Below, one piece after another: positions 11,314 to 64,000 of a DNA stretch of 64,000 nucleotides (positions are counted from its first letter, which is position 1; every line of letters begins with the position of its first letter). The DNA is from Sedimentisphaerales bacterium. Lineage in GTDB: Bacteria; Planctomycetota; Phycisphaerae; Sedimentisphaerales; SM23-30. The notes beneath the pieces are model-generated. The model made no database searches. It saw nothing but the letters and a program-made list of their open reading frames with translations, and was not told where the DNA came from. The DNA lies in assembly GCA_963666285.1 (NCBI GenBank), contig OY762711.1. One strand, given 5' to 3'. A program made the position numbers and the translations under genes.

Positions 11314-11341
11314 TTGACTAACAGGGCGTTAACACTATAAT
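11314..11341 (+). promoter_or_regulatory. Near-consensus sigma70-type promoter (TTGACT, 16-bp spacer, TATAAT) about 370 nt upstream of the 11715 gene
   Basis: TTGACT at 11314-11319 and TATAAT at 11336-11341, inside a 630-bp AT-rich divergent intergenic region. Confidence 0.4.
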
Positions 11342-11714: not shown

Positions 11715-12581
11715 TTGAGTACCATAACAAAAGTATTTGCCGTATTAGTCTCTCTTTTATCAATCTTCCTCTGTGGTGTTGTTATAGCATTCATGGGAAA
11801 AGTTCAGGATTACAAAGAGCTTTATGAAGACCAGAAAGTTTTGGCTGATGCCGCTCAGGTTATGGCATACAGTGCCGAACAGAGACTCGAAAAAGCCAAC
11901 CTTACCTATGGCAAAGCTGCAGAACTTACCAGCGAAAGGCTCAAAGATCTGCGTGATCAATACAACACCATGAGTGTTGACCTTGCTCAAGCCGAACAGG
12001 AAAGTGTTTTGGAAAGCAGTAAAGCTGACTCTGCTGTTAAGCTGGTCACTGCTATGCGTACTACTATTCAAGACATGCAAAATGCATATGAAACCCTTTG
12101 GTCTGATTTTGACGACAACAGATCTCAGATGCTTCAGGCTCAAACTCAGGTTACTGAGCTTACCCGCCAGCTAAACAATGAAATGGCACGCACAAAACAG
12201 ATGGAAGATACCAACCGTCGTCGTGCTGAACAGATTGCCGGACTGGAAGAGCAGATTGCTAAACTTAACCAGCAGCTGGATAAATACAACATCGCCCAGA
12301 AAGAGTTCGATAGCGACACCGCTGTTGCTCAGGTACTGCCTGAAATGACTGGCGTTCCAATAATGGGTGAAATTACTGAGATGGATGATAACATTGTTGC
12401 TATCTCTGTTGGCAGCACTTCCGGTGTTCGTGAAAACATGAGATTCTGGATTGTTCGCGGTGATAAATTCCTGGGTAATCTGGACATTATCTATGTTGAA
12501 GCTGACGAAGCTGCCGGACGCTTAAGTAACAAACAGGATGTTATCGTTGAAGGCGATATGGTTACTACTGACTTTAACTAA
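11715..12581 (+). CDS. Membrane-anchored coiled-coil protein (hypothetical)
   Basis: TTG start preceded by AAGGAG. N-terminal TM (VFAVLVSLLSIFLCGVVIAF), then Q/E-rich coiled coil, then a small C-terminal domain. Confidence 0.5.
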   Translation: MSTITKVFAVLVSLLSIFLCGVVIAFMGKVQDYKELYEDQKVLADAAQVMAYSAEQRLEKANLTYGKAAELTSERLKDLRDQYNTMSVDLAQAEQESVLESSKADSAVKLVTAMRTTIQDMQNAYETLWSDFDDNRSQMLQAQTQVTELTRQLNNEMARTKQMEDTNRRRAEQIAGLEEQIAKLNQQLDKYNIAQKEFDSDTAVAQVLPEMTGVPIMGEITEMDDNIVAISVGSTSGVRENMRFWIVRGDKFLGNLDIIYVEADEAAGRLSNKQDVIVEGDMVTTDFN

Positions 12582-18707: not shown

Positions 18708-19493
18708 TCACGCCGCGGCATGCACTTCCGCAGGTATACGATACTTCAACGCAACATGCGGTCTACGAGTGTTGTAAAGCTCAATTGCCTGCCTTACTGC
18801 TGCATATACATGAGCCTTTTCCTTAAACGTTTCTTTTAATCCATATTCATATTTCAATATACCATTTAGCCGTTCCGCCTTGGCATTCTCATAGCAATGG
18901 TTCTCTTCGGTCATGCTTATCTGTAATCCATTTCTCTGCAACTTATCAATATATCTGTGACAGCAATACTGACAGCCTCTATCCGAATGGTGAATCGCTT
19001 TACTCCCTTTCGGCAGCTGCTTTATCGCCATCGACAATGCCCTTAAACAACCTTCGGCTTCCAAGCTATCACTACAATCATAACCTACTATCTTGCGGCT
19101 ATAAGCATCCATTACCAATGCCAGATACATAAAACCTTCATTTGTACGTATATATGTTATATCACTTACCAGAGCCTGATTAGCTCCTGTCAGTTCTGCA
19201 TCTTTCAACAAATTATTATAAACCTTAAAACTATGACGACTATTTGTAGTTGTAACATATCGTCTTTTACGCTTTATCAGCTTATCATACTTATCCATAA
19301 GCTCAAAAAAGCGATCACGGCCTATTTCTATACCAACAAGCTCCAGTACTGGACTTATCAACTCCAAAACCTTACGACAGCCTAACTCTGGTTGCAATCT
19401 GCGCTCTGCCTCAACCAGTTCTATAATCAAAGCTTCATCTATAGATTTCTTCTTACGTTCCTTGCGTGCTTTATAGTAGTTTTGCCTGCTCAT
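18708..19493 (-). CDS. IS3-family transposase OrfB (DDE/rve integrase core)
   Basis: 261 aa with rve-type catalytic region ..SDITYIRT..HHSDRGCQY...NAKAERLNG.. Confidence 0.7.
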   Translation of the reverse strand: MSRQNYYKARKERKKKSIDEALIIELVEAERRLQPELGCRKVLELISPVLELVGIEIGRDRFFELMDKYDKLIKRKRRYVTTTNSRHSFKVYNNLLKDAELTGANQALVSDITYIRTNEGFMYLALVMDAYSRKIVGYDCSDSLEAEGCLRALSMAIKQLPKGSKAIHHSDRGCQYCCHRYIDKLQRNGLQISMTEENHCYENAKAERLNGILKYEYGLKETFKEKAHVYAAVRQAIELYNTRRPHVALKYRIPAEVHAAA

Positions 19494-19516
19494 ACCTACA
19501 AGACGACAAAAGCCTG

Positions 19517-19942
19517 CTATCGTCGCCTTTTGGGAACTACCTTCCTGCGGCTTCTGCGAGGCACGTTCAACTGCTGTGTGCTTACTTTTTTTTTGAAAGC
19601 TTCTGGATCGACGCTAACTTCCTCACATAGCTCCTCAAATACTGCTTCATTCAACAAACTCTGCATATGAGTATCTGCTAATGCCTCTTTCAGCTGCTTA
19701 ATCTCAGACTTTAGCTTCTTTATCTGATTCTGCTCTTCTGGTTTTTCCACGCGTATAACCTTTGGTACTAAGTGGTTACGGCCATATTTAATTAGCCATT
19801 TCTTTACTGTCTCGCCACCTGGTATCCCATAATGACGATTAGCTTCCGATATACTACCCAGCTTACCAGATTCCAGATCATTTACAACTTGTAACTTAAA
19901 TGCCTCACTATATCTATTGTTTGCCTTCTTAATTATTGCCAT
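19517..19942 (-). CDS. IS3-family transposase OrfA (HTH)
   Basis: 141 aa, helix-turn-helix N-terminus, leucine-zipper-like middle, basic C-terminus. Confidence 0.7.
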   Translation of the reverse strand: MAIIKKANNRYSEAFKLQVVNDLESGKLGSISEANRHYGIPGGETVKKWLIKYGRNHLVPKVIRVEKPEEQNQIKKLKSEIKQLKEALADTHMQSLLNEAVFEELCEEVSVDPEAFKKKVSTQQLNVPRRSRRKVVPKRRR

Positions 19943-23260: not shown

Positions 23261-23965
23261 TTAGCGGCGTTTCAGCAGCAATCCGCCAAAACCAAGTAAT
23301 ATCAGAGTCATAGGTTCAGGAACCGGGGAAACATATTCCCACATTACACCGGCAGAACGCATTGATACCCAGCTGCCGTCACTGGAAATTTGTGATACTG
23401 TGTACGTCTGCCCTTCAGTAAGAAGAACTTCCTTGCCTATCAACAGCCAGGCATTATTAGCACCAAGAAAAACTGTACCAACCGGCGGATTCTCTACTGC
23501 TGCCATAGCCATCGCGACTGTTCCGCCATTATTCATATCCACACCTGTATGTACGATCGTATCACCATCATTTTCAACTTCTATGGTACATGTTGTTGAT
23601 AGCGGAGTTGTATCTGGCCAGGTTATATATACGTTATAATACCCTGACTGGCCGCCATCCAGATTTGTTGAATATATACCATTTCCAAAATATCGACCGG
23701 AATCTTCCGGCACATCCCAGTTGTCAACATCCGATCCTGGCGTATAAGAAAAAGTATAAACATCAACCGGATCAGCTACAGTACTTCCATAAGCACTTTG
23801 GCTTGCGGTTAAGCCGGGAGCTGTTCCGGCAGTAGTCGAAAATCGCGGCGTACCGGTAAAATTCGTACTACCCCTGCCGTCACTATACGGCTCGACAATA
23901 AACGCGGCATGAATACTACCAAAAAGAAATAATACCAAAAGTACAACACAAACATAATTTTTCAT
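23261..23965 (-). CDS. PEP-CTERM-anchored secreted protein
   Basis: Signal peptide plus the C-terminal sorting signal VPEPMTLILLGFGGLLLKRR (PEP motif, TM helix, basic tail). Confidence 0.7.
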   Translation of the reverse strand: MKNYVCVVLLVLFLFGSIHAAFIVEPYSDGRGSTNFTGTPRFSTTAGTAPGLTASQSAYGSTVADPVDVYTFSYTPGSDVDNWDVPEDSGRYFGNGIYSTNLDGGQSGYYNVYITWPDTTPLSTTCTIEVENDGDTIVHTGVDMNNGGTVAMAMAAVENPPVGTVFLGANNAWLLIGKEVLLTEGQTYTVSQISSDGSWVSMRSAGVMWEYVSPVPEPMTLILLGFGGLLLKRR

Positions 23966-27498: not shown

Positions 27499-28908
27499 CT
27501 AATCTTCCGGCCGTTCACCTGCCGGTGCCATCTTAACGATCTTTGGGTCAAACCTGGCAATCTTCTCTACCAGGTCACTCTGGGCCGACATTACCTCATC
27601 GATATTCTTATACGCCATCGGCACCTCGTCAAGCCCGGCAGTTAATACTCGCACACCATTGGCTTCCAGGAACTTCTTCGCATCATGCCAGGTATAAGTT
27701 TCCTTCGCCTTCTTACGGCTCATCCGGCGACCTGCACCATGTGACGCCGAGTTCAGCGACTTCGGATTACCTTTACCACGCACTACATAACCCGGCGTTG
27801 CCATCGAACCGGGAATAATACCCAACGCACCGACACCGGCCGGGGTCGCTCCTTTACGATGTACAATCACTTCCTTGTCATCATGCTCTTCCTTCCAGGC
27901 AAAGTTATGATGGTTTTCGACATCCAGCAAAACCTTAACACCAAGATTCCTGGCAATATGCTTATGCACCAGTTCATGGTTGGCCGCGGCATAACGACCC
28001 ATCAGCTCCATCGCACGCCAGTATTCCTGACCTTCATCGCTGTCAATATCCAGCCATGCCAGGTGCATCAGTTCCTTTGGCAGTTCAAGATGTCGTTTCA
28101 TCGCAAGTTTACTATAATACGTAGCTATCTCGTTACCAGTACCGCGGCTGCCGCTATGGCTCAACAATGCCAGGTAGGTGCCGGCTTCCAGTCCGAGATC
28201 ATACTTTTCAAGCGTCAAAGTACCAAACTCGACAAAATGATTTCCGCTGCCGCTGGTACCCAGCTGGCTCCAGGCCTTATCCTTCAAACTCTTGACAGTT
28301 GAGCTGAATGTCCAATCTTCATCCATGACATCATGCTCACGTCTGCGCTTAAAAGTCGCTCCTACACCAAAACGAGTCTCCATTTCTAACGCATTCTTCA
28401 GCAAACCAAACTGGCCGTTAATCGCTGATACCGGCATATCCAAAACCGTCATCTTCATCCGGCAGGCAATATCAACTCCAACTGCATAAGGAATCACTGC
28501 CCCTTCCGTTGCCAGTACCCCGCCGATAGGCAGGCCATATCCGGTATGAGCGTCCGGCATCAACGCACCTCGCACCGAAATCGGAAGCTTACACGCATTC
28601 TCCATCTGCTCAATCGCAGAATCTTCCATGTCATCACCCCAGCGTTTATAATACGCCGGACTCTGACGAGGTACATACATGGCTTGTGCTGCTTTGGTCC
28701 GATTCAATACCTGTGCCGTTGCACCAAAAATCTCATCGTTAAAATATTTCTCTGCATTTGCCACTAAATCCGCAACCTTCTCACGCAGGACACTCTTGTT
28801 CTTACCGCGGCCTTCGTCGGAACGAACCCACCGCATGATCGCCTTTTTGATAAGGTCCATCGCCTCACCCTTCGGCACTCCAAGATTTAATAATTCTCTG
28901 GTCTTCAT
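27499..28908 (-). CDS. rtcB: RNA-splicing ligase RtcB (3'-phosphate/5'-OH RNA ligase)
   Basis: Conserved blocks ..AVGVDIAC.., SGNHFVEFG, HNFAW..HRKGATPAG..IIPGSM..SASHGAGR, PMAYKNIDEVM. The start is taken at MKTRELL (GGGAAA Shine-Dalgarno); the track begins at an upstream GTG. Confidence 0.85.
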   Translation of the reverse strand: MKTRELLNLGVPKGEAMDLIKKAIMRWVRSDEGRGKNKSVLREKVADLVANAEKYFNDEIFGATAQVLNRTKAAQAMYVPRQSPAYYKRWGDDMEDSAIEQMENACKLPISVRGALMPDAHTGYGLPIGGVLATEGAVIPYAVGVDIACRMKMTVLDMPVSAINGQFGLLKNALEMETRFGVGATFKRRREHDVMDEDWTFSSTVKSLKDKAWSQLGTSGSGNHFVEFGTLTLEKYDLGLEAGTYLALLSHSGSRGTGNEIATYYSKLAMKRHLELPKELMHLAWLDIDSDEGQEYWRAMELMGRYAAANHELVHKHIARNLGVKVLLDVENHHNFAWKEEHDDKEVIVHRKGATPAGVGALGIIPGSMATPGYVVRGKGNPKSLNSASHGAGRRMSRKKAKETYTWHDAKKFLEANGVRVLTAGLDEVPMAYKNIDEVMSAQSDLVEKIARFDPKIVKMAPAGERPED

Positions 28909-29116
28909 AATATCAATTTCCCTTATCTCAAACATCTGTAAAATTATTGTCTTTAATAAAAATAGTATCACCTCGCGAAGCGATCATTATCCACCCTCGC
29001 CGTAGGCGTATCCTTTACTGTTGCCTCATCACTTCTGTCCACTGCCTTTTTTTTAGAGTTGACACAACTCTCTGGAACTCATCCAAAAGTCTTTTGGATA
29101 CATTCGACATTCAGTT

Positions 29117-29554
29117 TCATGTTCCACTCACATCACGCGGCAGATTCCTGTCGGCATAAGCCCATTCAACCTCACGCTCCGTCCAGGTATGACAGCTCGG
29201 CTTTACCAGCTCAGGATTATCCAGGCTGCCGGCCTTTATAAATATGTGGTCCGGACATTTCTCGGCACGGGTAAACAACGGCGAACCGCAATCCGGGCAA
29301 AAATCACGCGTTATATCTCGACCGCTGTCTGCTTTTGAGGTATAACTCTTCACCTGCCCGCTCAATATCTTCAGCTTGCTCTTTTCCGAAACAATACCAA
29401 CTGTAAACGGACCGCCCGTCGCTTTCTTGCAGTCATCGCAATGACAATAGCTCGATTCACCAACTTCACCATCATACTCATAGCGAATCCCGCCGCATAA
29501 ACAACCACCTGTAAACTTACTGTCCATACCTGCTCCTTCTAATAATCCAGCCAC
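29117..29554 (-). CDS. GFA-family (glutathione-dependent formaldehyde-activating / CENP-V-like) zinc-binding protein
   Basis: 145 aa with the CxC..C..CxxC cysteine pattern (GGCLCGGIRYEY..SYCHCDDCKKATGG..FCPDCGSPL). Confidence 0.6.
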   Translation of the reverse strand: MAGLLEGAGMDSKFTGGCLCGGIRYEYDGEVGESSYCHCDDCKKATGGPFTVGIVSEKSKLKILSGQVKSYTSKADSGRDITRDFCPDCGSPLFTRAEKCPDHIFIKAGSLDNPELVKPSCHTWTEREVEWAYADRNLPRDVSGT

Positions 29555-29581
29555 GGTAAAACCGTAACATTAGCTTGCCAT

Positions 29582-37664: not shown

Positions 37665-37824
37665 GTGAGCTCTGGAAATTGCTTTTGATGCGATAGTTTA
37701 AGATTTTGGTTGCTGACAAGGAATATAAAATCGTGCATATTGGGCTATATTCACTGTTTTATATGACGCATGTTAGCAGGCAAAAGAAAAACTAGTCGCT
37801 CAAAATGAATTTTCAGAGGTTGCC
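37665..37824 (+). repeat. S-family intergenic repeat, copy 1 (~160 bp), candidate small RNA or MITE
   Basis: About 92% identical to 42776..42934. Differences include paired substitutions in TTGCTGACAAGG / CATGTTAGCAGG (copy 1) versus TTGCTGGCAAGG / CATGTCAGCAAG (copy 2), consistent with a conserved stem. Confidence 0.6.
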
Positions 37825-37939
37825 TTAATACTCATATTTACTCACTTTCTAATTTATGCGAAGCATAATTTAAACGCCTGATACCGAATGGCATCAAACC
37901 TCAGCTTGTATCTTATTACTTGTATCTTATTACTTTCTT

Positions 37940-38737
37940 CTACATATATCCCAACGCTCTCAGCTTCTGCATAGTAAATGTATCTTCCTTATCCTGGGCT
38001 CGACCGGCACGCTCGGAAGTATTAGTATGCTTCAACTCATAGATTATCTCATCTACATTGCTCGCATTAGATTCGATCGGACTGCAGCAAGGCACACAAC
38101 CGATACTGCGGAAACGCTTGCCTTCTTTACTGAAGTACAGTTCTGTTATCGGGATATTTTCTCGTTTGATATATTCCCAGATATCCAGCTCTGTCCAGCC
38201 CAGTAGCGGATGAACGCGGATATGCGTTTTCTCTTCAGCCTGGTTCTTATATTGATCCCAAAGCTCCGGCGGCTGATCCTGGTAGTTCCACTTAAACTCT
38301 TCGTTACGAGGCGAGAAAAATCTTTCCTTCGCCCGCACACCATGTTCGTCACGACGGATACCAAGCAGCAACGCCTCAAAACCATGCTTTGCTATCGCCT
38401 GCTTTAACCCTTCGGTCTTAAGAGCATTACAGCAATCCAGCTTCTTTTCATTACTCATACCAGCCGCAATTGCTTCTTCATTTCGGCTCACTACCAGGTC
38501 AAAACCCCATTTCTTGGAATATTCATCACGGAACCGATACATCTCCGGGAACTTATAACTTGTATCGATATGCAAAGCCTTAAACGGAACCTTACCGAAA
38601 AACGCCTTGCGAGTCAGCCACGCCAATGTTGTCGAATCTTTACCTATCGACCACAGCAGCGCTACGTTCTTATAATGATAATAAGCTTCTCGAATAATAT
38701 AAATACTCTGAGCTTCCAGTGCATCCAATCTGTCCAT
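37940..38737 (-). CDS. cysD: Sulfate adenylyltransferase subunit 2
   Basis: ..ALLWSIGKDSTTLAWL.. PP-loop; strong end-to-end similarity to E. coli CysD. Start taken at MDRLDALEAQSIYIIRE (AGGAG Shine-Dalgarno); the track starts at an upstream GTG. Confidence 0.8.
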   Translation of the reverse strand: MDRLDALEAQSIYIIREAYYHYKNVALLWSIGKDSTTLAWLTRKAFFGKVPFKALHIDTSYKFPEMYRFRDEYSKKWGFDLVVSRNEEAIAAGMSNEKKLDCCNALKTEGLKQAIAKHGFEALLLGIRRDEHGVRAKERFFSPRNEEFKWNYQDQPPELWDQYKNQAEEKTHIRVHPLLGWTELDIWEYIKRENIPITELYFSKEGKRFRSIGCVPCCSPIESNASNVDEIIYELKHTNTSERAGRAQDKEDTFTMQKLRALGYM

Positions 38738-42767: not shown

Positions 42768-42775
42768 TATTATAG

Positions 42776-42934
42776 GTGACCTCTGGAAATTGCTTTTGAT
42801 GCGATAGTTTAAGATTTTGGTTGCTGGCAAGGAACATAAAATCGTGCATATTGGCTATATTCACTGTTTTATGTGACACATGTCAGCAAGTAAAAGAAAA
42901 ACTTGTCGCTCAAAATTAATTTTCAGAGATTGCC
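42776..42934 (+). repeat. S-family intergenic repeat, copy 2
   Basis: See copy 1. Same orientation; lies between the repeat lipoprotein and a small zinc-ribbon membrane protein. Confidence 0.6.
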
Positions 42935-42963
42935 TATAAGTTTACTTTCGCACTATAATAAAT

Positions 42964-45664: not shown

Positions 45665-46078
45665 CCATTCTGTAACTCAACAATATCGGCAAATAACCAC
45701 TCTTTCGATACCGATTATTATATATCATATTGTTTTCATATCAAGAGTATTAACCTTCGATTTACGCCCATTTTACAGTGCGGCAATATCGTCGGGAAAA
45801 ACTTTTCGCCCGAACTTAAAATATCAACACATTTCTGGCACATGACCAAATTCCACACTAAAGCCTTAACTCTAATTAAACTAACCCTTTATAGAATAAA
45901 ATAACATTCCATCATTATCGATCGATCCTGCTTTTTACATTATTTCCTTGAACTTGAAACGCAATTTCTGGTAACATAAAAGATGTGTTTTATTGTGATT
46001 TTTACGTTTTCAACATCGTTCCACACACTTTAAGTGAAACGATGGACATTTAATCTAAATCATATTGGAGGTTTTAAA

Positions 46079-46756
46079 ATGAGAAAAATTTTAATGGCGA
46101 TTGTTGTTATGGCCCTTTCCATGTCTGCCCATGCCGGATATTACATTGCCGGTGAATATAATGGATGGGATGCCGGTGCAAATGAAATGACCGATAATGG
46201 TGACGGCACTTACTCATACACTGTTACTGGTTTAGACGCCGGCCAGCGACAGGAATTCAAAATCACCGACGGCACATGGGACTGGAATTTCCCAGGACCA
46301 AACAGCTGGTACTATACCGATGCCAACGGTGAAGTCACTATCACTTTCAATACAAACGAAGTTAATGACGGATGGTCAACAAATATCAACCGCATACAGC
46401 TCAGTACAGATCCCGGCACATGGACAATCGCCGGTAGTTTCCAGGGCTGGGACAATGCTAACGCCGCTACCGCTATGACATCAATTGGCGGCGGTATCTA
46501 CTCTCTTTCCCAGACTCTCGATGCTGGTACTTACTATTTTAAGGCTGTCGTTACCGGCACCTGGGATTCTATCAGCTGGGACAACCGCTCTGTCGGTACT
46601 GACAATATTACCCTGGACCTTACCGAAACTCAGGATGTAATTTTCTACGTTGACGCTTTTAGCGGAACAATCAAAACTGAAGTTGTTCCGGAACCGGCTA
46701 CTATGGCTCTTCTCGGCTTTGGCGCTTTCGCTATCCACCGCCGCAGAAAAGCATAA
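46079..46756 (+). CDS. PEP-CTERM-anchored secreted protein
   Basis: GGAGG Shine-Dalgarno 7 nt before the ATG at 46079. Signal peptide MRKILMAIVVMALSMSAHA; C-terminal VPEPATMALLGFGAFAIHRRRKA. Confidence 0.7.
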   Translation: MRKILMAIVVMALSMSAHAGYYIAGEYNGWDAGANEMTDNGDGTYSYTVTGLDAGQRQEFKITDGTWDWNFPGPNSWYYTDANGEVTITFNTNEVNDGWSTNINRIQLSTDPGTWTIAGSFQGWDNANAATAMTSIGGGIYSLSQTLDAGTYYFKAVVTGTWDSISWDNRSVGTDNITLDLTETQDVIFYVDAFSGTIKTEVVPEPATMALLGFGAFAIHRRRKA

Positions 46757-46780
46757 CATAATCATTGTCTAACAAACTTA

Positions 46781-46819
46781 AAGCCGTTTCTGACTCTTGA
46801 TCAGAAGCGGCTTTTTTTT
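46781..46819 (+). terminator. Strong rho-independent terminator
   Basis: AAGCCGTTTCTGA-CTCTTGA-TCAGAAGCGGCTT followed by 8 T. Confidence 0.7.
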
Positions 46820-57496: not shown

Positions 57497-58696
57497 CTAA
57501 CCTCTAACTTCTAACTTTTTGATCTCTTCATCTGTCAGATAACACGCAGGGTCCGGCTCCCACAAATCGCCGTACTTCGCTTCTGCTCTCACCCGGAAAT
57601 TCCCGTTACACACATCCTGGAACCGGCATACTCCGCAGCGACCCTTCAAAAACTTCTTACGATCTTTCAGCTTCGCCATCAGTTCATCATTGGTATCGGT
57701 CCATATCTCCGAAAATTTACGCTCCCTCACATTGCCAAAAGTATAATGTCGCCAGAACTGGTCCGCATGTACGCTGCCATCCCAGCTAACACAGCCAATA
57801 CCGATACCGGTACTATTGCCGCCGTTCATCTTCAGCAGCTCCATTACCTGCTCCGCCCGCTCGGTCTTACCTTCCGCCAGCAGCCGCAAATAAATATACG
57901 GACCGTCTGTATGGTTATCTACCGTCAGCACTTCCTTCTTCAAACCACGATTATGCAAATCTTCTGTCCGGTCGATTATCAGGTCAACAACTTTGCGACT
58001 CTCCTCCAAGCTCAAGTCTTCCTCCATCAGCTCACTGCCGCGCCCGGCATAAACCAGGTGATAAAAACACACTCGCGGAACATCCTCCTGCTCCAGCAAA
58101 TCAAATATACCCGGAACATCATGCACATTTCGCTTATTAATAGTAAACCGTAAACCAACCTTTACACCCGCCGCCTTACAGTTTCGCATACCCGCCAACG
58201 CCTTATCATAAGCACCGGCTATCCCGCGAAACTTATCATTCGTTTCACGCAGCCCGTCCAGGCTCACACCCACATAGCTCAAACCCAGTTCAGCAAACTG
58301 CTCGGCCTTCTCCGGCGTTATCAGTGTACCATTTGTTGAGATCACAGCACGCAATCCATTCGCCTTCGCCCTCTTTATCAGCTCCGGCAAATCCTTCCTC
58401 GTCAGCGGCTCACCGCCACTAAACAACACCACCGGCACACCAAACTCCGCCAGGTCATCCAAAAGCTTAAAACCCTCTTCGGTCGTCAGCTCATTCTCGT
58501 AATCCATATCATGCGAATGCGAATAGCAATGCACACACTTCAAATTACAACGCCTCGTTGTATTCCAAACCACAACCGGCCGCTTATCCTTAGAAAACTG
58601 TAATAAATGGCTGGGCAGCTTGCCTGAATGGCGATTATACCTCAGTGGATCAGAGGCCTCAACGGTTCCGCAATATAATTTTGATATTCCAATCAT
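57497..58696 (-). CDS. Radical SAM / SPASM-domain protein
   Basis: CNLKCVHCYS (CxxxCxxC) near the N-terminus; C-terminal Cys cluster CGVCRFQDVCNGNF typical of a SPASM/twitch domain. Confidence 0.75.
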   Translation of the reverse strand: MIGISKLYCGTVEASDPLRYNRHSGKLPSHLLQFSKDKRPVVVWNTTRRCNLKCVHCYSHSHDMDYENELTTEEGFKLLDDLAEFGVPVVLFSGGEPLTRKDLPELIKRAKANGLRAVISTNGTLITPEKAEQFAELGLSYVGVSLDGLRETNDKFRGIAGAYDKALAGMRNCKAAGVKVGLRFTINKRNVHDVPGIFDLLEQEDVPRVCFYHLVYAGRGSELMEEDLSLEESRKVVDLIIDRTEDLHNRGLKKEVLTVDNHTDGPYIYLRLLAEGKTERAEQVMELLKMNGGNSTGIGIGCVSWDGSVHADQFWRHYTFGNVRERKFSEIWTDTNDELMAKLKDRKKFLKGRCGVCRFQDVCNGNFRVRAEAKYGDLWEPDPACYLTDEEIKKLEVRG

Positions 58697-59299
58697 TGTT
58701 CTATCTTTCTGGTAACAATACTCTGATTTCTCATGGCTGGTTCTAAGTAAAGTATAGTATTATAGTAATAATTCCGCTCCGGGACTAATAATAAAACGAG
58801 CTTATCTCTATATTATTCATCCATTTGCATCATTTACCCCACTTTAACATCTCAAATTTACTATACCTCAACAATGATCCGAAAAATCCCAATAATACAA
58901 AAGCCTGACCCTTGACTATTTCTCCAGCCGCGGCCGAACCTACGACGGCCTGCTCTTTGTGAAAGATTAATAAATCCCAAGCCGCAACATACAAAAAAAC
59001 ACTATAATTACTCTAAAAACAAAATAATTATGATTACCTCAAGTGAAAATAGGTAAAATATCTCTGCTATTTTAATCTTTATCTGATAGCAAATTCTCTT
59101 ATAAAATCTAATGATGTCTAACCTGTTCTGAAACCATTATTTATATCATCTGCATGAAAATTTAACCGTTACATGTTTATCATCATTTGCAGATTTTGTC
59201 TCAATCGCTATAAGATATTTACAATTGTTTGTATGGGACAAATACATTACCTGCGACTATTCTACCCAAACTGCTTACCCTGTATACACATATAATTCC

Positions 59300-59327
59300 T
59301 TGACAAAATCGGATAATAAAGTAAAAT
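59300..59327 (+). promoter_or_regulatory. Consensus sigma70-type promoter (TTGACA, 16-bp spacer, TAAAAT) at the head of a 560-nt ORF-free leader
   Basis: TTGACA at 59300-59305, TAAAAT at 59322-59327. Confidence 0.45.
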
Positions 59328-59781
59328 ACTTTCTTGCTTCAAGAGTCGACTTTACTGGATGAAATTGATTTAATTTCTTTGTATTTCTTATTTTTATCGT
59401 TTTTGTACTACTATTAAATCTTATTGCGAATTAGTTGAGAATGTTTTTTGCAATTATCCTGGCAAAGTATGACGCGATAGAGTGATTTTATAAGGATCGG
59501 TTGAAAAGAGAATTAGACCAGGATCAAGCCTGGTCTTTAAGTCCCTGGAACGCAGGAGGCGAGGGTTTGTTTGCTTTTATCTTTCTAACTTATTCATATT
59601 AATATATGGATTATATAGGAATTTGTATTCCTGTCGTTTTTTAAAATTGGAACCAATAGTAACATTTTTTGTAAGCATTCACAGGTGCGTTATTTGAGTC
59701 AGATTCTGTGTTTGCGGAGATTTAAAATAGTTCGCGATAAGCGAACCTTAGCTTATTTCTTTTTACTTATATTTTATTACT

Positions 59782-59810
59782 GTAACCGTGTGAACGGTTA
59801 CCATTTTTTT
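59782..59810 (+). terminator. Intrinsic terminator/attenuator hairpin 93 nt upstream of the ACP start codon
   Basis: GTAACCGT-GTGA-ACGGTTAC followed by CATTTTTTTAC. Further hairpin+T-run structures at 59543-59580 and 59620-59645. Confidence 0.55.
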
Positions 59811-59902
59811 ACTTGAAAGATAACCTCTTAACAGATGTTGCCTGAATAAGTAAATTCATTTTTTAGTGTTTGAGAAGATTATCGTTTTATAGGAGTTTTC
59901 AT

Positions 59903-60163
59903 GTGGAGAAAACCAAGTATTACAATATTATTGAAGATTTTATAATTGAGCAGTTTCTATTTGGCAGTAAAGAAGACCTTCAGAGAGATTTTTCTCTTTT
60001 GGAACAGGGAATTATTGATTCCATGGGTGTTCTGGAAATCGCCACTTACCTGGAAGATACCTTCAACATCATTATTCTCGATGATGAAGTTATACCCGAA
60101 AATCTAGACACAATAGATAATATATGTAGATTTTTGGAGACAAAGGTTAAATGTGCGGGATAG
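59903..60163 (+). CDS. Acyl carrier protein
   Basis: GTG start 7 nt after AGGAG. Phosphopantetheine attachment motif ..EQGIIDSMGVLEIATYLE.. (DSM). Confidence 0.6.
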   Translation: MEKTKYYNIIEDFIIEQFLFGSKEDLQRDFSLLEQGIIDSMGVLEIATYLEDTFNIIILDDEVIPENLDTIDNICRFLETKVKCAG

Positions 60164-62118
60164 CTGGTATTTGCTGTATAAATTCTTCCGACCGGTTTGA
60201 TGCTGATACAATATGCTCGATGCTGTCATCTATTCGCCATAGAGGACCGGACGAATCAGGTATATACCTTGACAACCACGCTGCTCTGGGGCACTGCCGA
60301 CTTAGCATTATTGACTTGGCCGGCGGCATCCAGCCGCTGTCCAACGAAAACGAAGACCTGTGGATAACCTATAATGGCGAGATTTTTAATTTCCCTGAAT
60401 TAAAACGCTGCCTCGACAAGCATAATTTTAAAACCAGAACTGATACTGAGGTACTCCTGCACCTTTTCGAAGACCATGGAATAGAATGTCTCGATATGCT
60501 TAACGGGCAGTTCGCCTTCGCTATCTGGAACAGCAGCAAAAAAGAACTATTCCTGGCAAGAGATCGACTCGGAATCAGACCACTTTTTTATACTATTCAA
60601 GATAACAAAATAATTTTTGCTTCTGAAATTAAAGCTGTTTTCCAATATCCCAGGATCGACAGGGAACTCGACTGTATCGCACTCGATCAGATTTTCACAT
60701 TCTGGACTACCCTGCCTGGCTATACAGCGTTTAAAGGTATCAGGGAACTGCCGCCGGGCCATTACCTGCATCTTAAAAATGGTATTATCACAATTAAACA
60801 ATACTGGCAAACTCCTTTATGTCGGGAAGACTCATCTGAATACTCTGATCTGAAGGAAGCATCAGAAAAGCTAAGCTGTTTAATCACCGACTCTATCAAT
60901 ATACGGCTGAGAGCTGATGTGCCGGTTGGCAGCTACCTCAGTGGAGGACTGGACTCTTCCGGAATAACCGCTAAAATCGTTAACAAATTTAATAACCGGT
61001 TAACTACTTTTGGCATCCGGTTTGACGATCCGGATTTCGACGAAACGGCCTACCAGAAACATATGGTTAACCATCTCAAAACTAACCATACCGAACTGTT
61101 AGCATCAAACAATCTCATTGCGGATAACTTCGACAGGGTAATTTACCATAGCGAAAAACCTATGACCAGAACCGCCCCCGCCCCGCTCTTCCTGCTGTCT
61201 AAAGTTGTTAGAGACTCAAACTACAAGGTGGTACTTACCGGAGAAGGGGCTGATGAATTTTTCGGCGGATATAATATATTTCGTGAGGCAAAGATAAGAT
61301 ACTTCTGCGCCCGCCAACCTGAGGCAACCTGGCGAACGGAGCTTTTTGGCCGCATCTATCCATATATCTTTAATAACCCAAGGATGAAAAAATCTTTACA
61401 GGCTTTTTTCACCAGGGGTATGCTCGATTTTGAAAACCCGTACTATTCGCATTGCTTGCGATGGGCTAATACCTGCCGGATTAAATCTTTCTGGGATAAA
61501 CCTTTTCAGAAATCCGTCGGACAATACGATGCTATCGGCGAACTTGACAGCTTCTTACCTGGCGGTTTCGGTAAATGGGATATCCTTTCCAGGGCTCAAT
61601 TCCTGGAAAGCAGCCTGTTCATGAGCAATTACCTGCTCTCCAGCCAGGGAGACCGGGTGGCTATGGCTCACTCACTGGAAATCCGGCTCCCATTCCTGGA
61701 CTACAGACTCCTGGAGGCTCTTGCCGCTTTACCAAGACGATGGAAAATCTCAGGCATAAAAGAAAAATTTATTCTTAGAAAAATTTTTGAAAACGATCTG
61801 CCCGCTGACATACTAAACCGCACCAAACAACCTTACAGGGCGCCCGTTATCAATGCCTTAACTGCCGATAGCAGCAGCTATTCTTCAAATATGGTCAGCG
61901 AAGATATGGTCAAAAAATCCGGCATATTTGACTATAACAAAGTATCGCTTCTGTTGAAAAAAATCAAAAACAATCGACAGCCATCTGAAATTGACAATAT
62001 GGCCTTGTGCCTGATTGTGTCAACCCAGATGCTCATAGACCAGTTTATTTGCAACCCGGTTAAAATTCCTGAACCTTATCAGGTCGATATGGTTATCGAT
62101 AAAAGAAACAAAAACTGA
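60151..62118 (+). CDS. Asparagine synthetase B-family glutamine-hydrolysing amidotransferase
   Basis: N-terminal MCGIAGI (Cys2 nucleophile) and PP-loop SGGLDSS; 655 aa. Overlaps the ACP stop. Confidence 0.8.
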   Translation: MCGIAGICCINSSDRFDADTICSMLSSIRHRGPDESGIYLDNHAALGHCRLSIIDLAGGIQPLSNENEDLWITYNGEIFNFPELKRCLDKHNFKTRTDTEVLLHLFEDHGIECLDMLNGQFAFAIWNSSKKELFLARDRLGIRPLFYTIQDNKIIFASEIKAVFQYPRIDRELDCIALDQIFTFWTTLPGYTAFKGIRELPPGHYLHLKNGIITIKQYWQTPLCREDSSEYSDLKEASEKLSCLITDSINIRLRADVPVGSYLSGGLDSSGITAKIVNKFNNRLTTFGIRFDDPDFDETAYQKHMVNHLKTNHTELLASNNLIADNFDRVIYHSEKPMTRTAPAPLFLLSKVVRDSNYKVVLTGEGADEFFGGYNIFREAKIRYFCARQPEATWRTELFGRIYPYIFNNPRMKKSLQAFFTRGMLDFENPYYSHCLRWANTCRIKSFWDKPFQKSVGQYDAIGELDSFLPGGFGKWDILSRAQFLESSLFMSNYLLSSQGDRVAMAHSLEIRLPFLDYRLLEALAALPRRWKISGIKEKFILRKIFENDLPADILNRTKQPYRAPVINALTADSSSYSSNMVSEDMVKKSGIFDYNKVSLLLKKIKNNRQPSEIDNMALCLIVSTQMLIDQFICNPVKIPEPYQVDMVIDKRNKN

Positions 62119-62143
62119 CAAGATAAATAATTATGGAATTAGT

Positions 62144-63721
62144 ATGTATGATAAATATCCAATATTAGTACATCAATGGCTCGAAAAAACTGCGTCAGAA
62201 TTTCCCGACAAAACCGCACTGGTATGCGGTAAAGAAAGCATTACTTACCGGGAACTTAATGAAAAATCTGATAATATGGCCGCAGCACTCAGACTTAATG
62301 GAATCTCTCATCAGGACAGGGTGGTTATTTTTCTCGAAAATTCTATCGAAACAGTTATATCTCTTTACGCTGTTGCAAAGGCCGGCGCCATCTTTGTTAT
62401 TGTTAACGAACAGCTCAAGGCTGCCAAGCTGGCCTATATCATCAATAACTCACAGGCGAAATTCCTGGTCTCTTCCGGCCCCAAAATCAAGACCGTCTCT
62501 CTCGCTGTAAATGAATGCCACGGCAAACCAAAACTTATTTTCACCCGGATAAATAAGAAAGTAACCGATCAGTTCAACGATAGCCTGGCATTCGAAGAAC
62601 TTACATCATCCAAACCTGATACCGCCGGAATTTCTACTGTTGTCGAAATCATTGATCAGGATCTGGCCGCTCTTATCTACACCTCCGGGTCAACTGGTGA
62701 ACCAAAAGGAGTTATGTCTTCTCATCTCAATATGATTTCAGCGGCACGAAGCATCATTCAATATACCAAACAATGCTCCGGCGATATCATCCTGAACGTA
62801 TTGCCGCTGTCTTTTGACTATGGACTGTACCAGGTGATTATGAGTGTTATGTTTGGCGGCACTGTTATTCTTGAAAAATCTTTTGCCTACTTCCACCAGG
62901 TACTGTTAAAAATCAGTGAATATAAAGTCACCGGTTTCCCCATTGTGCCTACTATTGTTGCTATGATGCTAAATTTGCAGGATCTTTCCAAATACGACTT
63001 CTCCTCTCTTCGTTTTATTACCAATACCGGTGCCGCACTGCCGGTCGAACATATCAGGCGGTTCAGAAAACTCTTTCCCCGCTTGGAAATATACTCGATG
63101 TACGGCCTGACTGAATGCAAGCGGGTCAGCTATCTTCCTGTAGAACAAATTGATATCAGACCAGATTCCGTCGGAATAGCTATGCCCAACTGCAGGGTTC
63201 TTATCGTTGACAACGATGGCAAACCGGTGAATACCGGTGAGATCGGCGAACTCATTATACAAGGTTCCAATGTTATGCCCGGCTACTGGCAGGATCCGCA
63301 ACTATCAGCTAAAGTATATAAAACCGGTTACCTCAACCTGCGATATCTCTATTCCGGAGATTTCTTCAAACAGGATAAAGATGGATATCTCTATTTCCTC
63401 GGGAGAAAAGATGATATGATAAAGACCAGGGGAGAACGAGTCAGCCCAAAGGAAATTGAAAATATTATCAGCCAATACCCGGGTGTCGCTGAAGTCGCTG
63501 TGATTGGCATACCAGAACCGATTATGAGCCAGGTTCCCAAAGCGTTTATCGTTAAAGCAAATGGATATAATCTAAACACAGATGATATACTCAAATATTC
63601 TATCGAAAATATGGAAAGGTTCATGGTGCCTGGAGCCGTTGAATTCATAGACGCTTTACCTAAAACACCAAATGGTAAAATTGACAAAAACAAGCTTAAA
63701 GAGCAGGAACTACAAATATGA
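62144..63721 (+). CDS. AMP-forming acyl-CoA/acyl-ACP ligase (adenylate-forming enzyme)
   Basis: Core motifs YTSGSTGEPKGV, ..YGLTE.., GDF..DKDGYLYFLGRKDDMIK. Confidence 0.8.
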   Translation: MYDKYPILVHQWLEKTASEFPDKTALVCGKESITYRELNEKSDNMAAALRLNGISHQDRVVIFLENSIETVISLYAVAKAGAIFVIVNEQLKAAKLAYIINNSQAKFLVSSGPKIKTVSLAVNECHGKPKLIFTRINKKVTDQFNDSLAFEELTSSKPDTAGISTVVEIIDQDLAALIYTSGSTGEPKGVMSSHLNMISAARSIIQYTKQCSGDIILNVLPLSFDYGLYQVIMSVMFGGTVILEKSFAYFHQVLLKISEYKVTGFPIVPTIVAMMLNLQDLSKYDFSSLRFITNTGAALPVEHIRRFRKLFPRLEIYSMYGLTECKRVSYLPVEQIDIRPDSVGIAMPNCRVLIVDNDGKPVNTGEIGELIIQGSNVMPGYWQDPQLSAKVYKTGYLNLRYLYSGDFFKQDKDGYLYFLGRKDDMIKTRGERVSPKEIENIISQYPGVAEVAVIGIPEPIMSQVPKAFIVKANGYNLNTDDILKYSIENMERFMVPGAVEFIDALPKTPNGKIDKNKLKEQELQI

Positions 63722-64000
63722 CAAATCAAAAACCATTTAGCCCGGACGTACTGAATATTGATTATGACCGGGAAGTTGAAAAAATCTCGGAGTATATTCG
63801 TCATTCTCTTCAGAAAGTCTTAAAGAGAAAAGGGATCGTTCTAGGCGTATCCGGTGGTATTGACAGTAGTACAACCGCGGCACTTTGTGTAAATGCTATT
63901 GGAAAGGAACGGGTATTCGGCATACTTATGCCCGAACAGGATTCAGCCGAGGAGTCCGAACAGTTCGGCAAACTGCTATGCTGCCATTTAGGAATTAAAT
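63718..64000 (+). CDS. NAD synthetase-like PP-loop ATPase (partial; continues past the window end)
   Basis: Start overlaps the ligase stop (ATGA). SGGIDSS PP-loop (GIVLGVSGGIDSSTTAALC). Confidence 0.5.
   Translation, partial: MTNQKPFSPDVLNIDYDREVEKISEYIRHSLQKVLKRKGIVLGVSGGIDSSTTAALCVNAIGKERVFGILMPEQDSAEESEQFGKLLCCHLGIK

What the first reader, a model, noticed from the sequence alone, without database searches (positions are those of the whole stretch)
59300..64000. ACP / AsnB-like amidotransferase / AMP-ligase / NadE-like cluster behind a 560-nt structured leader (promoter plus three hairpin terminators)
The four co-directional, overlapping genes (acyl carrier protein, class-II glutamine amidotransferase of the asparagine-synthase family, adenylate-forming ligase, PP-loop NAD-synthetase-like ATPase) match the gene set described next to exosortase/PEP-CTERM polysaccharide loci. 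Two PEP-CTERM proteins are encoded in this window. Upstream, a 1.2-kb ORF-free region carries a consensus promoter (59300) and then successive hairpin+U-run structures at about 59545, 59620 and 59782. The last one ends 93 nt before the ACP start. That layout is typical of a riboswitch or attenuator, or of a small RNA.
Basis: partly seen in the sequence, partly recalled or inferred. Interest (0 to 1): 0.55.

Follow-up and report, generated by a model that had tools for sequence, protein, structure and literature searches.

The report
Amidation gene cassette behind unconserved spacer
The four genes are a real, widely shared but uncharacterised cassette that probably loads an amino acid on a carrier protein and amidates it, while the "structured leader" in front of it is an unconserved AT-rich spacer with one good promoter match and one proper terminator, not a recognisable riboswitch.

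Summary
**Genes.** All four calls hold: a carrier protein, an AsnB-type amidotransferase, an NRPS-type adenylating ligase and a NadE-like PP-loop enzyme cut by the window end. Two PEP-CTERM proteins exist but lie 13 and 36 kb away.

**Exosortase link.** The amidotransferase and ligase hit the XrtA-associated NCBIfam families best, but well below their cut-offs. No PEP-CTERM gene lies near any of 74 homologous loci. The cassette recurs across many phyla, mostly inside polysaccharide loci. In its two nearest homologues it follows a C-PCP-TE gene.

**Leader.**
- The 1206-nt ORF-free spacer and the 11/12 promoter match at 59300 are real.
- Only 59782-59810 is a canonical plus-strand terminator.
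- The "59620" site is weak and the "59545" site is not a terminator.
- No Rfam family matches, and no antiterminator alternative folds.

**Conservation.** Two close relatives (79-84% nucleotide identity across ahbC and the peptidase gene) lose all similarity 14 nt upstream of ahbC and lack the cassette. One hairpin belongs to a short dispersed repeat.

**Verdict.** This is an ordinary spacer at a synteny breakpoint. A riboswitch or attenuator is unsupported, but cannot be excluded without transcript data.

The parts
57497..58696 (-). ahbC (12,18-didecarboxysiroheme deacetylase). It is the divergent core gene that bounds the spacer on the left.
   Evidence: TIGR04546 scores 719 bits against a cut-off of 650. 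It is 94% and 91% identical at the protein level to the genes in L076 and L077.
58711..59902 (.). AT-rich spacer (about 32% G+C) with no counterpart in close relatives. It marks a synteny breakpoint.
   Evidence: Similarity to L076 and L077 stops at 58710. No ORF exceeds 54 aa. Composition is given.
59300..59327 (+). Near-consensus sigma-70-type promoter match, TTGACA-16-TAAAAT. The inferred transcription start is near 59334.
   Evidence: The match is 11 of 12, and the chance of such a site in a shuffled spacer is 0.10.
59515..59536 (.). Stable 8-bp hairpin with 5 G-C pairs and no U-run on the plus strand. The scan calls it terminator-like on the minus strand only.
   Evidence: Pairing probability is about 0.8-1.0.
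59541..59585 (+). Bulged 7-bp hairpin followed by an interrupted U-rich run.
   Evidence: fold of 59505-59585. It was not picked up.
59613..59642 (+). Weak terminator-like site: AGGAAT/ATTCCT stem with 2 G-C pairs, then GTCG and T6.
   Evidence: -8.4 kcal/mol with the extended stem. It falls below the scan criteria.
59719..59781 (.). Copy of a short dispersed repeat. It consists of the hairpin 59729-59747 followed by AACCTTAGCTTATTTCTT... On the minus strand it reads as a purine-rich repeat, then the hairpin, then TATTTTAAAT.
   Evidence: It matches L077 532-583 at 81% over 53 nt, E = 7e-6. It also matches L076 9816-9890 (E = 0.005) and window 37894-37934 (E = 0.01).
59782..59810 (+). Canonical intrinsic terminator: GTAACCGT-GTGA-ACGGTTAC, then CA and T7.
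   Evidence: Pairing probability is at least 0.94.
59828..59856 (+). Weak promoter-like match, TTAACA-17-TAAATT (9 of 12), between the terminator and the ACP gene. It is a possible own promoter for the operon, but sits at chance level.
   Evidence: About 7.6 sites of this quality are expected in shuffles.
59903..60163 (+). Small carrier protein (ACP/PCP type). It starts at GTG, has an AGGAG ribosome-binding site at 59892-59896, and carries a GIIDSMG phosphopantetheine-site motif.
   Evidence: PF00550 scores 20.0 bits against a cut-off of 20.8. NCBIfam ACP families match. It is 59% identical to the L002 ACP.
60151..62118 (+). AsnB-family glutamine-dependent amidotransferase with an N-terminal MCGIAG nucleophile.
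   Evidence: TIGR01536 scores 496 bits against a cut-off of 267. TIGR03108 scores 436 against 817. The best PDB hits are 7ylz and 1ct9.
62144..63721 (+). Stand-alone adenylating enzyme of the NRPS A-domain type. Its SFDYGLYQ segment aligns with the FD of the A4 motif.
   Evidence: PF00501 and PF13193 match. TIGR03098 scores 468 bits against 592. The best PDB hits are the LgrA A domains at 292 bits, then 3wvn and 7dq5.
63718..64000 (+). NadE-like PP-loop ATP pyrophosphatase. Only the first 94 residues lie inside the window.
   Evidence: PF02540 scores 67 bits, and NF002048 (PRK00876) scores 113 bits on the fragment. The full-length L002 orthologue scores 505 bits against a cut-off of 313.

Best explanation
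**The operon (shown and inferred).** The four genes are the visible start of an operon for a carrier-protein-dependent amidation pathway. The stand-alone NRPS-type adenylating enzyme loads an amino acid or dicarboxylic acid onto the small carrier protein. The AsnB-type enzyme uses glutamine-derived ammonia, after ATP activation, to amidate a free carboxylate. The NadE-like PP-loop enzyme performs a second ATP-dependent amidation or adenylation. These steps are inferred from family chemistry, not shown.

The product is probably handed on in one of two ways. In most other phyla the partner would be a hexapeptide acyltransferase inside a polysaccharide locus. In the two nearest homologous clusters it would be a C-PCP-TE protein.

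**The location (shown).** In this genome the cassette sits on the variable side of a synteny breakpoint next to ahbC.

**The spacer (inferred).** The 1.2-kb upstream spacer is lineage-specific AT-rich DNA, not a dedicated sensor. It holds:
- one near-consensus promoter at 59300;
- several modest hairpins, one of them a copy of a short dispersed repeat;
- one canonical plus-strand terminator at 59782-59810.

The most likely working is plain insulation or constitutive attenuation. Transcripts from the 59300 promoter mostly stop at 59810. The operon is then expressed by residual read-through, or from a weak promoter at 59828-59856 that would leave a normal 5' UTR of about 40 nt.
For: **Genes**
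- The ligase aligns with NRPS A domains, including the FD of motif A4.

**Cassette distribution**
- Among 42 homologous loci with at least 4 kb on both sides, a NadE-like gene lies within 4 kb in 36, a ligase in 35 and an ACP in 32. All three accompany the AsnB-like gene in 25, with varying gene order.
- The recurrent neighbours are a hexapeptide acyltransferase (26 loci), Poly_export, GT1/GT4 glycosyltransferases and a FemAB-type GNAT by Pfam, plus a Wzz/kinase-like protein judged by eye from its sequence.
- The nearest clusters, L002 and L075 at 65-66% identity, carry C-PCP-TE upstream and an unknown gene of about 290 aa downstream.

**Breakpoint**
- L076 and L077 keep ahbC and the prolyl oligopeptidase gene at 79-84% nucleotide identity.
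- Similarity ends at window position 58710, and each genome has a different upstream neighbour.
- No AsnB homologue between 66% and 100% identity exists among 5.8 billion proteins.

**Leader**
- No Rfam family matches.
- There is only one canonical plus-strand terminator.
- The terminator forms with probability at least 0.94. Leaving its 3' arm unpaired costs 7.6 kcal/mol, and no alternative helix appears.
- The hairpin at 59729-59747 is part of a dispersed repeat.
- The leaders of the two nearest clusters share neither sequence nor layout.
Against: - The promoter match at 59300 is better than chance (P about 0.1) and points at the operon, which fits a real leader of about 570 nt.
- The leader folds more stably than shuffles (z = -2.9).
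- This one spacer holds 3 of about 10 strong intergenic terminator-like hairpins in the window, in under 9% of the intergenic DNA.
- G/C and A/T skew both switch sign near 59300, as expected if transcription diverges from there.
- The promoter downstream of the terminator is only a 9-of-12, chance-level match.
- Protein-mediated or NusG-paralogue-mediated antitermination leaves no signature that these tools can see.
- No relative carrying both the cassette and a comparable spacer exists in the searched data. Non-conservation is therefore shown by absence, not by divergence of an orthologous leader.
Confidence: 0.55

Rival explanations
1. **Regulated leader.** The 59300 promoter drives the operon through a 5' UTR of about 570 nt. 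Its terminators (59642, 59810) would be overridden on demand by a protein, a specialised NusG paralogue (processive antitermination, as in many polysaccharide operons) or an unknown ligand-binding RNA.
For: - The promoter match is 11 of 12 and correctly oriented.
- A canonical terminator lies 92 nt before the start codon.
- The leader folds with z = -2.9.
- A protein that looks NusG-like by eye (not scanned against any family library) occurs in 5 of the homologous polysaccharide loci.
- Composition skew switches sign near 59300.
Against: - No Rfam family matches, including EAR, JUMPstart and the riboswitch classes.
- No antiterminator alternative appears in the folding ensemble.
- No NusG paralogue or RNA-binding regulator was seen in the annotated parts of the window.
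- Neither the nearest clusters nor the nearest genomes have any leader counterpart.
- The upstream "terminators" are weak or lack U-runs.
Confidence: 0.2
2. **Independent small RNA.** The 59300 promoter and the terminator at 59642 or 59810 delimit a non-coding RNA of about 305 or 475 nt. It would be unrelated to the operon, which has its own promoter downstream.
For: - The promoter-plus-terminator geometry fits.
- The segment 59647-59808 has an sRNA-like layout: hairpin, G/U-rich single strand, hairpin, terminator. It gives a sub-threshold GcvB match (23.3 bits against 42, E = 0.011 in a 1.3-kb search).
- A possible operon promoter lies at 59828-59856.
Against: - The GcvB score is far below the gathering score, and the match is carried largely by the terminator hairpin and a G/U-rich single-stranded stretch.
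- There is no conservation in relatives.
- The first 180 nt are 22-30% G+C, U-rich and without a significant fold.
- Part of the segment is a dispersed repeat.
Confidence: 0.18
3. **Exosortase accessory set.** The cluster would be the canonical XrtA/PEP-CTERM amidotransferase, ligase and ACP set, serving the two PEP-CTERM proteins of the window.
For: - The best NCBIfam names are TIGR03108 for the amidotransferase and TIGR03098 for the ligase.
- The genome encodes PEP-CTERM proteins.
Against: - Both scores are far below the family cut-offs: 436 against 817, and 468 against 592.
- The PEP-CTERM genes lie 13 and 36 kb away, among unrelated genes.
- None of 74 homologous loci has a PEP-CTERM-tailed protein within 10 kb, although the same test detects both window proteins.
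- The nearest clusters look NRPS-like, with a C-PCP-TE gene.
Confidence: 0.1

Closest known systems
XrtA/PEP-CTERM-system accessory enzymes (NCBIfam TIGR03108 amidotransferase, TIGR03098 AMP-forming ligase)
   Same: The domain architectures are the same, and these are the best-named family hits for two of the four proteins. Homologous cassettes elsewhere lie in polysaccharide loci.
   Different: Scores are 53% and 79% of the family cut-offs. No exosortase or PEP-CTERM gene is adjacent here or in 74 homologous loci. The cassette also has a tightly linked NadE-like gene that carries no exosortase-associated family name (best match is the generic PRK00876 NAD synthase subfamily).
Stand-alone adenylation enzyme plus small carrier protein pairs, such as DltA/DltC in D-alanylation and the VinN-type or beta-aminoacyl-ACP synthetases (PDB 3wvn, 7dq5)
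   Same: A free A-domain enzyme with the amino-group-binding FD motif sits next to a carrier protein of about 86 aa. The carrier gives weak hits to DltC and AsbD-type carriers.
   Different: No DltB or DltD partners are present. Two amidotransferases are linked instead. The substrate is unknown.
AsnB-like amidotransferases of secondary metabolism: TsnB9 hydroxyamidotransferase (PDB 7ylz) and, from memory, OxyD, which makes the malonamyl starter unit of oxytetracycline
   Same: 7ylz is the best solved-structure hit, at 216 bits, ahead of E. coli AsnB at 186 bits. The logic of amidating a carboxylate in a carrier-protein pathway is the same.
   Different: The relationship is distant. The 7ylz alignment covers only residues 1-394. 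No polyketide synthase context is present. The OxyD comparison rests on recall and was not tested.
Leaders of polysaccharide operons under processive antitermination (RfaH/ops-JUMPstart, LoaP, Bacteroides UpxY, Bacillus EAR RNA)
   Same: A long leader with terminator-like hairpins lies upstream of a cassette that elsewhere belongs to polysaccharide loci. A protein that looks NusG-like by eye occurs in 5 homologous loci.
   Different: There is no Rfam match to EAR, JUMPstart or any other family. No NusG paralogue was seen in the annotated parts of the window. The leader is not conserved.
Ordinary intrinsic (Rho-independent) terminators
   Same: 59782-59810 has an 8-bp G+C-containing stem, a tetraloop and a T7 tract.
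   Different: It lies in a divergent spacer with no upstream plus-strand gene to terminate. It is also weaker than most of the window's gene-end terminators, most of which are -12 to -20 kcal/mol.

Membership tests
XrtA/PEP-CTERM system amidotransferase (TIGR03108) | Score at or above the curated cut-off of 816.9 bits | tested here: not met
   436.1 bits. The L002 orthologue scores 448.8 bits.
Exosortase A-associated acyl-CoA ligase (TIGR03098) | Score at or above the curated cut-off of 592.35 bits | tested here: not met
   468.2 bits. The L002 orthologue scores 486.6 bits.
XrtA/PEP-CTERM accessory set | Location in or next to an exosortase/EPS locus | tested here: inconclusive
   There is none upstream within the window. 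DNA downstream of 64000 is not available. No PEP-CTERM-tailed protein lies within 10 kb in 74 homologous loci. The exosortase gene itself was not searched for.
Asparagine synthase, glutamine-hydrolysing (TIGR01536 / PF00733 with a class-II GATase domain) | Score above cut-off and an N-terminal Cys nucleophile | tested here: met
   496.3 bits against a cut-off of 267.1. PF00733, PF13537 and PF13522 all match. The sequence starts MCGIAG. Family membership does not establish that asparagine is the product.
NRPS-type adenylation domain (TIGR01733) | Score at or above 317.4 bits, and an A4 FD motif | tested here: inconclusive
   277.2 bits, below the cut-off. However, the best PDB hits are NRPS A domains, and SFDYGLYQ aligns with the FD of both LgrA A domains.
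Phosphopantetheine carrier protein (PF00550) | Pfam gathering score, and a DS(x) attachment-site serine | tested here: inconclusive
   20.0 bits against a cut-off of 20.8. The GIIDSMG motif is present. It is 59% identical to the L002 ACP. A homologue lies within 4 kb of the AsnB-like gene in 32 of 42 loci.
NAD synthase subfamily PRK00876 (NF002048) | Score at or above 313 bits over the full length | tested here: inconclusive
   Only 94 residues lie in the window, scoring 113 bits. The 73%-identical L002 orthologue scores 504.9 bits.
Any described riboswitch, leader or sRNA family (Rfam 15) | Covariance-model score at or above the gathering threshold | tested here: not met
   Nothing in the spacer reaches a gathering score. 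At E up to 10 the best hits are STnc480 (26.8 against 72), GcvB (23.3 against 42) and Trp_leader (18.8 against 41).
Transcription attenuator or riboswitch expression platform | Mutually exclusive terminator and antiterminator helices | tested here: not met
   Terminator pairing probability is 0.94-1.0 in both the nascent and the full leader. Leaving the 3' arm unpaired costs 7.6 kcal/mol, with no alternative helix for the 5' arm.
Transcription attenuator or riboswitch | Conservation of the leader in related genomes | tested here: not met
   There is no similarity to the L002 or L075 leaders. L076 and L077 lose similarity at 58710.
Intrinsic terminator | G+C-containing stem-loop directly followed by a U-tract | tested here: met
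   Met by 59782-59810. Not met on the plus strand by 59515-59536, 59541-59560 or 59729-59747. Marginal for 59617-59642.
Sigma-54 / PrsR-type PEP-CTERM promoter | A -24 GG / -12 GC element close to TGGCACG-N4-TTGCW | tested here: not met
   The best site in the spacer scores 8 of 12 (59546). There are 49 equally good sites in the window.

The most novel reading that the evidence does not exclude
The spacer could encode a lineage-specific regulatory RNA of a new kind. It would be a leader of about 570 nt whose serial hairpins and terminators are overridden by an unknown factor, switching on a horizontally acquired cassette. The cassette (A-domain enzyme, carrier protein, AsnB-like and NadE-like amidotransferases) would itself be a widespread, uncharacterised pathway that installs an amidated aminoacyl or dicarboxyl group on a polysaccharide or small molecule.
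Probability: 0.07. Interest if true: 0.5.

Novelty: new member of a known kind. Interest (0 to 1): 0.25.

Why it matters
**The leader.** If it were a real sensor, it would be a new riboregulator tied to cell-surface chemistry. The evidence points the other way.

**The cassette.** The more useful result is a four-gene module: an NRPS-type adenylating enzyme, a small carrier protein, an AsnB-type amidotransferase and a PRK00876-type NadE-like enzyme.
- It recurs across Ignavibacteria, Bacteroidota, Planctomycetota, Verrucomicrobiota, Desulfobacterota-type lineages, Acidobacteriota, Chloroflexota and others.
- It mostly sits inside polysaccharide loci.
- I found no described function for it in the NCBIfam family names or in the literature searched.

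Working out its product would explain a common, unannotated surface-polymer decoration or small amide metabolite.

Tried and rejected
1. **Rfam.** I scanned the whole window at gathering scores and the spacer at E up to 10. Nothing credible appeared.
2. **Decayed C-PCP-TE gene.** I tested whether the spacer is a remnant of the gene that precedes the cassette in the nearest clusters. tblastn found nothing.
3. **Similarity to the L002 leader.** blastn found none. The promoter and terminator layout of the L002 and L075 leaders is also not shared.
4. **Sigma-54 promoter of the PEP-CTERM type.** No site better than chance was found.
5. **Antiterminator alternative.** None was found.
6. **Small ORFs or leader peptides.**
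   - All ORFs in the spacer are 54 aa or shorter.
   - By eye, none has a convincing Shine-Dalgarno sequence.
   - The G+C island at 58850-58999 shows no significant fold on either strand.
7. **Invertible promoter.** The best inverted repeat around 59300 is 25 nt at 72%. No recombinase was seen nearby in the annotated parts of the window.
8. **Source genome.** I tried to retrieve it for the DNA beyond 64000. The exact proteins are in the protein collection, but their contig is not on record. It was also not among the genome-contig hits.
9. **Metagenome scan for the dispersed repeat.** The pattern AACCTYAGCTTRTWWCTTNTTWCTTRT gave 0 hits.
10. **Literature.**
    - No paper in the library describes the four-gene set.
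    - Haft 2006 (PMC1569441) does not mention these enzymes.
    - The OlsH ornithine-lipid pathway (PMC12493201) uses a GH3-like enzyme. I judged it unrelated from its title and abstract.
    - Craig et al. 2011 (PMC3187218) is not held.
11. **Homology to 23S-rRNA-IVP genes.** tblastn found no match in the spacer.

Full report
**1. What is in the sequence**

The region holds four co-directional genes.
- A small carrier protein starts at GTG 59903 and ends at 60163. An AGGAG ribosome-binding site lies at 59892-59896. The start was fixed by alignment to the Ca. Electrothrix YB6 orthologue.
- An AsnB-type glutamine amidotransferase runs from 60151 to 62118, overlapping the carrier gene by 13 nt. 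It matches TIGR01536 at 496 bits against a cut-off of 267 and begins MCGIAG.
- An AMP-binding enzyme runs from 62144 to 63721.
- A NadE-like PP-loop enzyme starts at 63718 in an ATGA overlap and is cut by the window end.

The gene to the left is ahbC, on the minus strand at 57497-58696 (TIGR04546, 719 bits against 650). The spacer 58697-59902 is therefore a 1206-nt divergent intergenic region. It holds no ORF above 54 aa and is about 32% G+C, against 42% for the window.

Two PEP-CTERM proteins are indeed encoded in the window, at 23261-23965(-) and 46034-46756(+). They lie 36 and 13 kb from the cluster. The genes in between include beta-helix proteins, a pilin-like protein, an ADP-ribosylglycohydrolase and a prolyl oligopeptidase.

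**2. The gene set**

The two largest proteins hit the XrtA/PEP-CTERM-associated NCBIfam families best. Both fall well below the curated cut-offs: TIGR03108 scores 436 against 817, and TIGR03098 scores 468 against 592. They are therefore paralogues of that set, not members.

The ligase looks like an amino-acid-activating NRPS adenylation domain.
- Its best solved relatives are the two A domains of LgrA (292 bits), a stand-alone NRPS-type enzyme (3wvn) and a beta-aminoacyl-ACP synthetase (7dq5).
- Its SFDYGLYQ segment aligns with the FD of the A4 core motif in both LgrA domains. From general knowledge of A domains, that aspartate binds the substrate amino group.

The AsnB-like protein is closest to the hydroxyamidotransferase 7ylz (216 bits), ahead of E. 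coli AsnB (186 bits). The NadE-like fragment belongs with subfamily PRK00876. Its 73%-identical full-length orthologue in L002 scores 505 bits against a cut-off of 313.

**3. The cassette elsewhere**

A scan of one genome per species returned 72 loci with an AsnB-like orthologue. Most are 45-54% identical, and they come from many phyla.

Among 42 loci with at least 4 kb on both sides, a NadE-like gene lies within 4 kb in 36, a ligase in 35 and an ACP in 32. All three accompany the AsnB-like gene in 25, in varying order. That pattern marks a functional module.

The recurrent neighbours are:
- by Pfam: a hexapeptide acyltransferase (26 loci), Poly_export, GT1/GT4 glycosyltransferases, a FemAB-type GNAT and a polysaccharide deacetylase;
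- by eye from their sequences, not scanned: an NAD-dependent epimerase-like protein, a DegT-type aminotransferase-like protein and a Wzz/kinase-like protein;
- in 5 loci, a protein that looks NusG-like by eye.

None of the 74 loci encodes a PEP-CTERM-tailed protein within 10 kb. The same test detects both window proteins.

The two nearest clusters are Ca. Electrothrix YB6 (L002, 66%) and a Logan contig (L075, 65%). Both read C-PCP-TE, ACP, AsnB-like, ligase, NadE-like, then an unknown gene of about 290 aa. The window has no trace of the C-PCP-TE gene upstream.

**4. The nearest genomes and the breakpoint**

No AsnB homologue between 66% and 100% identity exists in the 5.8-billion-protein collection. 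ahbC does have close relatives, at 94% and 91% protein identity. Their contigs, L076 and L077, keep ahbC and the prolyl oligopeptidase gene at 84% and 79% nucleotide identity. L077 also keeps the beta-helix and ADP-ribosylglycohydrolase genes further left.

Similarity to both stops at window position 58710, 14 nt upstream of the ahbC start. Upstream of ahbC, L076 has a 1876-aa surface protein and L077 has a ClC channel. So the cassette and the whole spacer lie on the variable side of a synteny breakpoint, and the spacer has no counterpart in the closest available genomes.

**5. Anatomy of the "leader"**

*Promoter.* TTGACA-16-TAAAAT at 59300-59327 matches 11 of 12 positions. Seven sites this good exist in the window, and four sit correctly upstream of genes. 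A shuffled spacer gives at least one such site 10% of the time. It is a plausible promoter. A start near 59334 would give a leader of about 570 nt.

*Hairpins*:
- 59515-59536 has 8 bp with 5 G-C pairs but no plus-strand U-run.
- 59541-59560 is bulged and is followed by GAGGG and an interrupted U-rich run.
- 59617-59632 has 6 bp with 2 G-C pairs, then GTCG and T6.
- 59729-59747 has 6-7 bp.
- 59782-59801 plus T7 is the only canonical plus-strand terminator (-11.2 kcal/mol, z = -3.4).

The scan scores 59515-59536 and 59729-59747 as terminator-like on the minus strand only. Most gene-end terminators in this window are stronger, at -12 to -20 kcal/mol.

*Tests for a regulatory RNA:*
- The whole leader folds with z = -2.9.
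- No Rfam family reaches its gathering score. The best sub-threshold hits are STnc480, GcvB and Trp_leader, at about a third to just over half of their thresholds.
- The terminator forms with probability at least 0.94. No competing helix appears when its 3' arm is kept free, at a cost of 7.6 kcal/mol.
- No sigma-54 site better than chance is present.
- A 9-of-12 promoter-like match at 59828-59856 lies between the terminator and the ACP gene. It would give a normal 5' UTR of about 40 nt, but sites of that quality are expected by chance.
- G/C and A/T skew change sign near 59300. This is compatible with divergent transcription from there, but is weak evidence.

**6. A dispersed repeat inside the leader**

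The segment 59719-59781 consists of the hairpin 59729-59747 followed by AACCTTAGCTTATTTCTT... It matches three other places:
- L077 532-583, at 81% over 53 nt (E = 7e-6), in an unrelated long spacer;
- L076 9816-9890, about 110-185 nt upstream of ahbC and in the same orientation relative to ahbC as in the window (E = 0.005);
- window 37894-37934, directly after a minus-strand gene.

On the minus strand the element reads as purine-rich AAGTAATAAG-type repeats, then a hairpin, then TATTTTAAAT. That makes it terminator-like. At least one "leader hairpin" is therefore a copy of a mobile or recurrent short element, not a part of a dedicated leader.

**7. Most likely working**

*Shown:* the gene identities, the module's recurrence, the breakpoint, one promoter match and one canonical terminator.

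*Inferred:* the adenylating enzyme loads an amino acid or dicarboxylate on the carrier. The AsnB-like enzyme amidates a free carboxylate with glutamine-derived ammonia. The NadE-like enzyme performs a second ATP-dependent amidation. The unit is then passed to a polysaccharide acceptor through a hexapeptide acyltransferase (in other phyla) or to a C-PCP-TE protein (in the nearest clusters).

For the spacer I favour plain insulation or constitutive attenuation (0.55). Transcripts from the 59300 promoter would end mostly at 59810, and the operon would be expressed by read-through or from a weak proximal promoter.

The rivals are:
- a regulated antitermination leader (0.2);
- an independent sRNA (0.18);
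- the canonical exosortase accessory set (0.1). This rival concerns the genes rather than the leader, so it is not exclusive of the other three.

**8. Comparison with what is known**

- The cassette works like other stand-alone A-domain and carrier-protein pairs, such as DltA/DltC and beta-aminoacyl-ACP synthetases, combined with AsnB-type amidation.
- It resembles the XrtA-associated enzyme set but fails its membership tests.
- The leader resembles the leaders of polysaccharide operons under processive antitermination only in being long and hairpin-rich. Every testable defining feature was not met: family match, alternative helices and conservation.

**9. Verdict**

The cassette is a new member of a known kind of carrier-protein and amidotransferase gene set, with an undescribed product. 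The leader is most likely ordinary, and its interest is low. What cannot be settled here is transcription itself, and what lies beyond position 64000.

Noticed in passing
window 27499-35801: The sigma-54 activator gene rtcR (34209-35801, +) is divergent from a minus-strand unit with nine tRNA genes and one SPFH/Band-7 gene (31449-32552). The tRNAs are Leu-AAG, Lys-UUU, Gln-UUG, Glu-UUC, Leu-UAG, Met-CAU, Pro-UGG, His-GUG and Leu-UAA. Next come rtcA (29582-30622), a GFA-domain gene and rtcB (27499-28971). This is a tRNA array embedded in an Rtc RNA-repair locus.
   Followed up: partly
window 37663-37828 and 42774-42935: Two copies, 92.6% identical, of a ~165-nt near-perfect palindrome that folds into one long hairpin (-74 kcal/mol, z = -10.8). 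It looks like a MITE-like or long-hairpin interspersed repeat. One copy lies next to a 23S-rRNA-intervening-sequence-protein gene at 37296-37646.
   Followed up: partly
window 59719-59781 and 37876-37940; L077 522-603; L076 9806-9900: A short dispersed repeat: a hairpin followed by AACCTYAGCTTRT..CTTATTACTT. On the other strand it reads as AAGTAATAAG repeats, a hairpin and a T-rich tail. It was found four times in about 106 kb of this lineage's DNA and was absent from the JGI metagenome scan.
   Followed up: partly
window 58697-58710; L076 8921-10000; L077 9610-10000: The region upstream of ahbC is a rearrangement hot spot. Three related genomes have three different neighbours: this cassette, a 1876-aa CotH/LTD protein, and a ClC channel. 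Even the ahbC promoter region is not conserved beyond 14 nt.
   Followed up: yes
L076 about 9140-9362 (minus strand of the locus): An uncalled small ORF (MKKTVYLKYLNLLLFLSLTIQ...), apparently a membrane protein, lies in the 1080-nt spacer upstream of ahbC in the relative L076.
   Followed up: no
window 11314-11341: A second near-consensus promoter match, TTGACT-16-TATAAT (11 of 12), lies 374 nt upstream of the next gene. That gene is at 11715-12581 and has a weak, below-cut-off match to an HBM sensor domain. This may be another long leader in this genome.
   Followed up: no
window 18708-19942: An IS3-type transposase pair (HTH_Tnp_1 plus rve integrase core) lies on the minus strand, next to a 1040-aa FG-GAP/TSP3 protein and the PEP-CTERM gene at 23261-23965.
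   Followed up: no
window 46034-46814: This PEP-CTERM protein carries pullulanase X25 carbohydrate-binding domains. It is a single-gene unit preceded by a 369-nt spacer. It is followed by the strongest terminator in the window (46780-46814, 14 bp, -20.4 kcal/mol).
   Followed up: no
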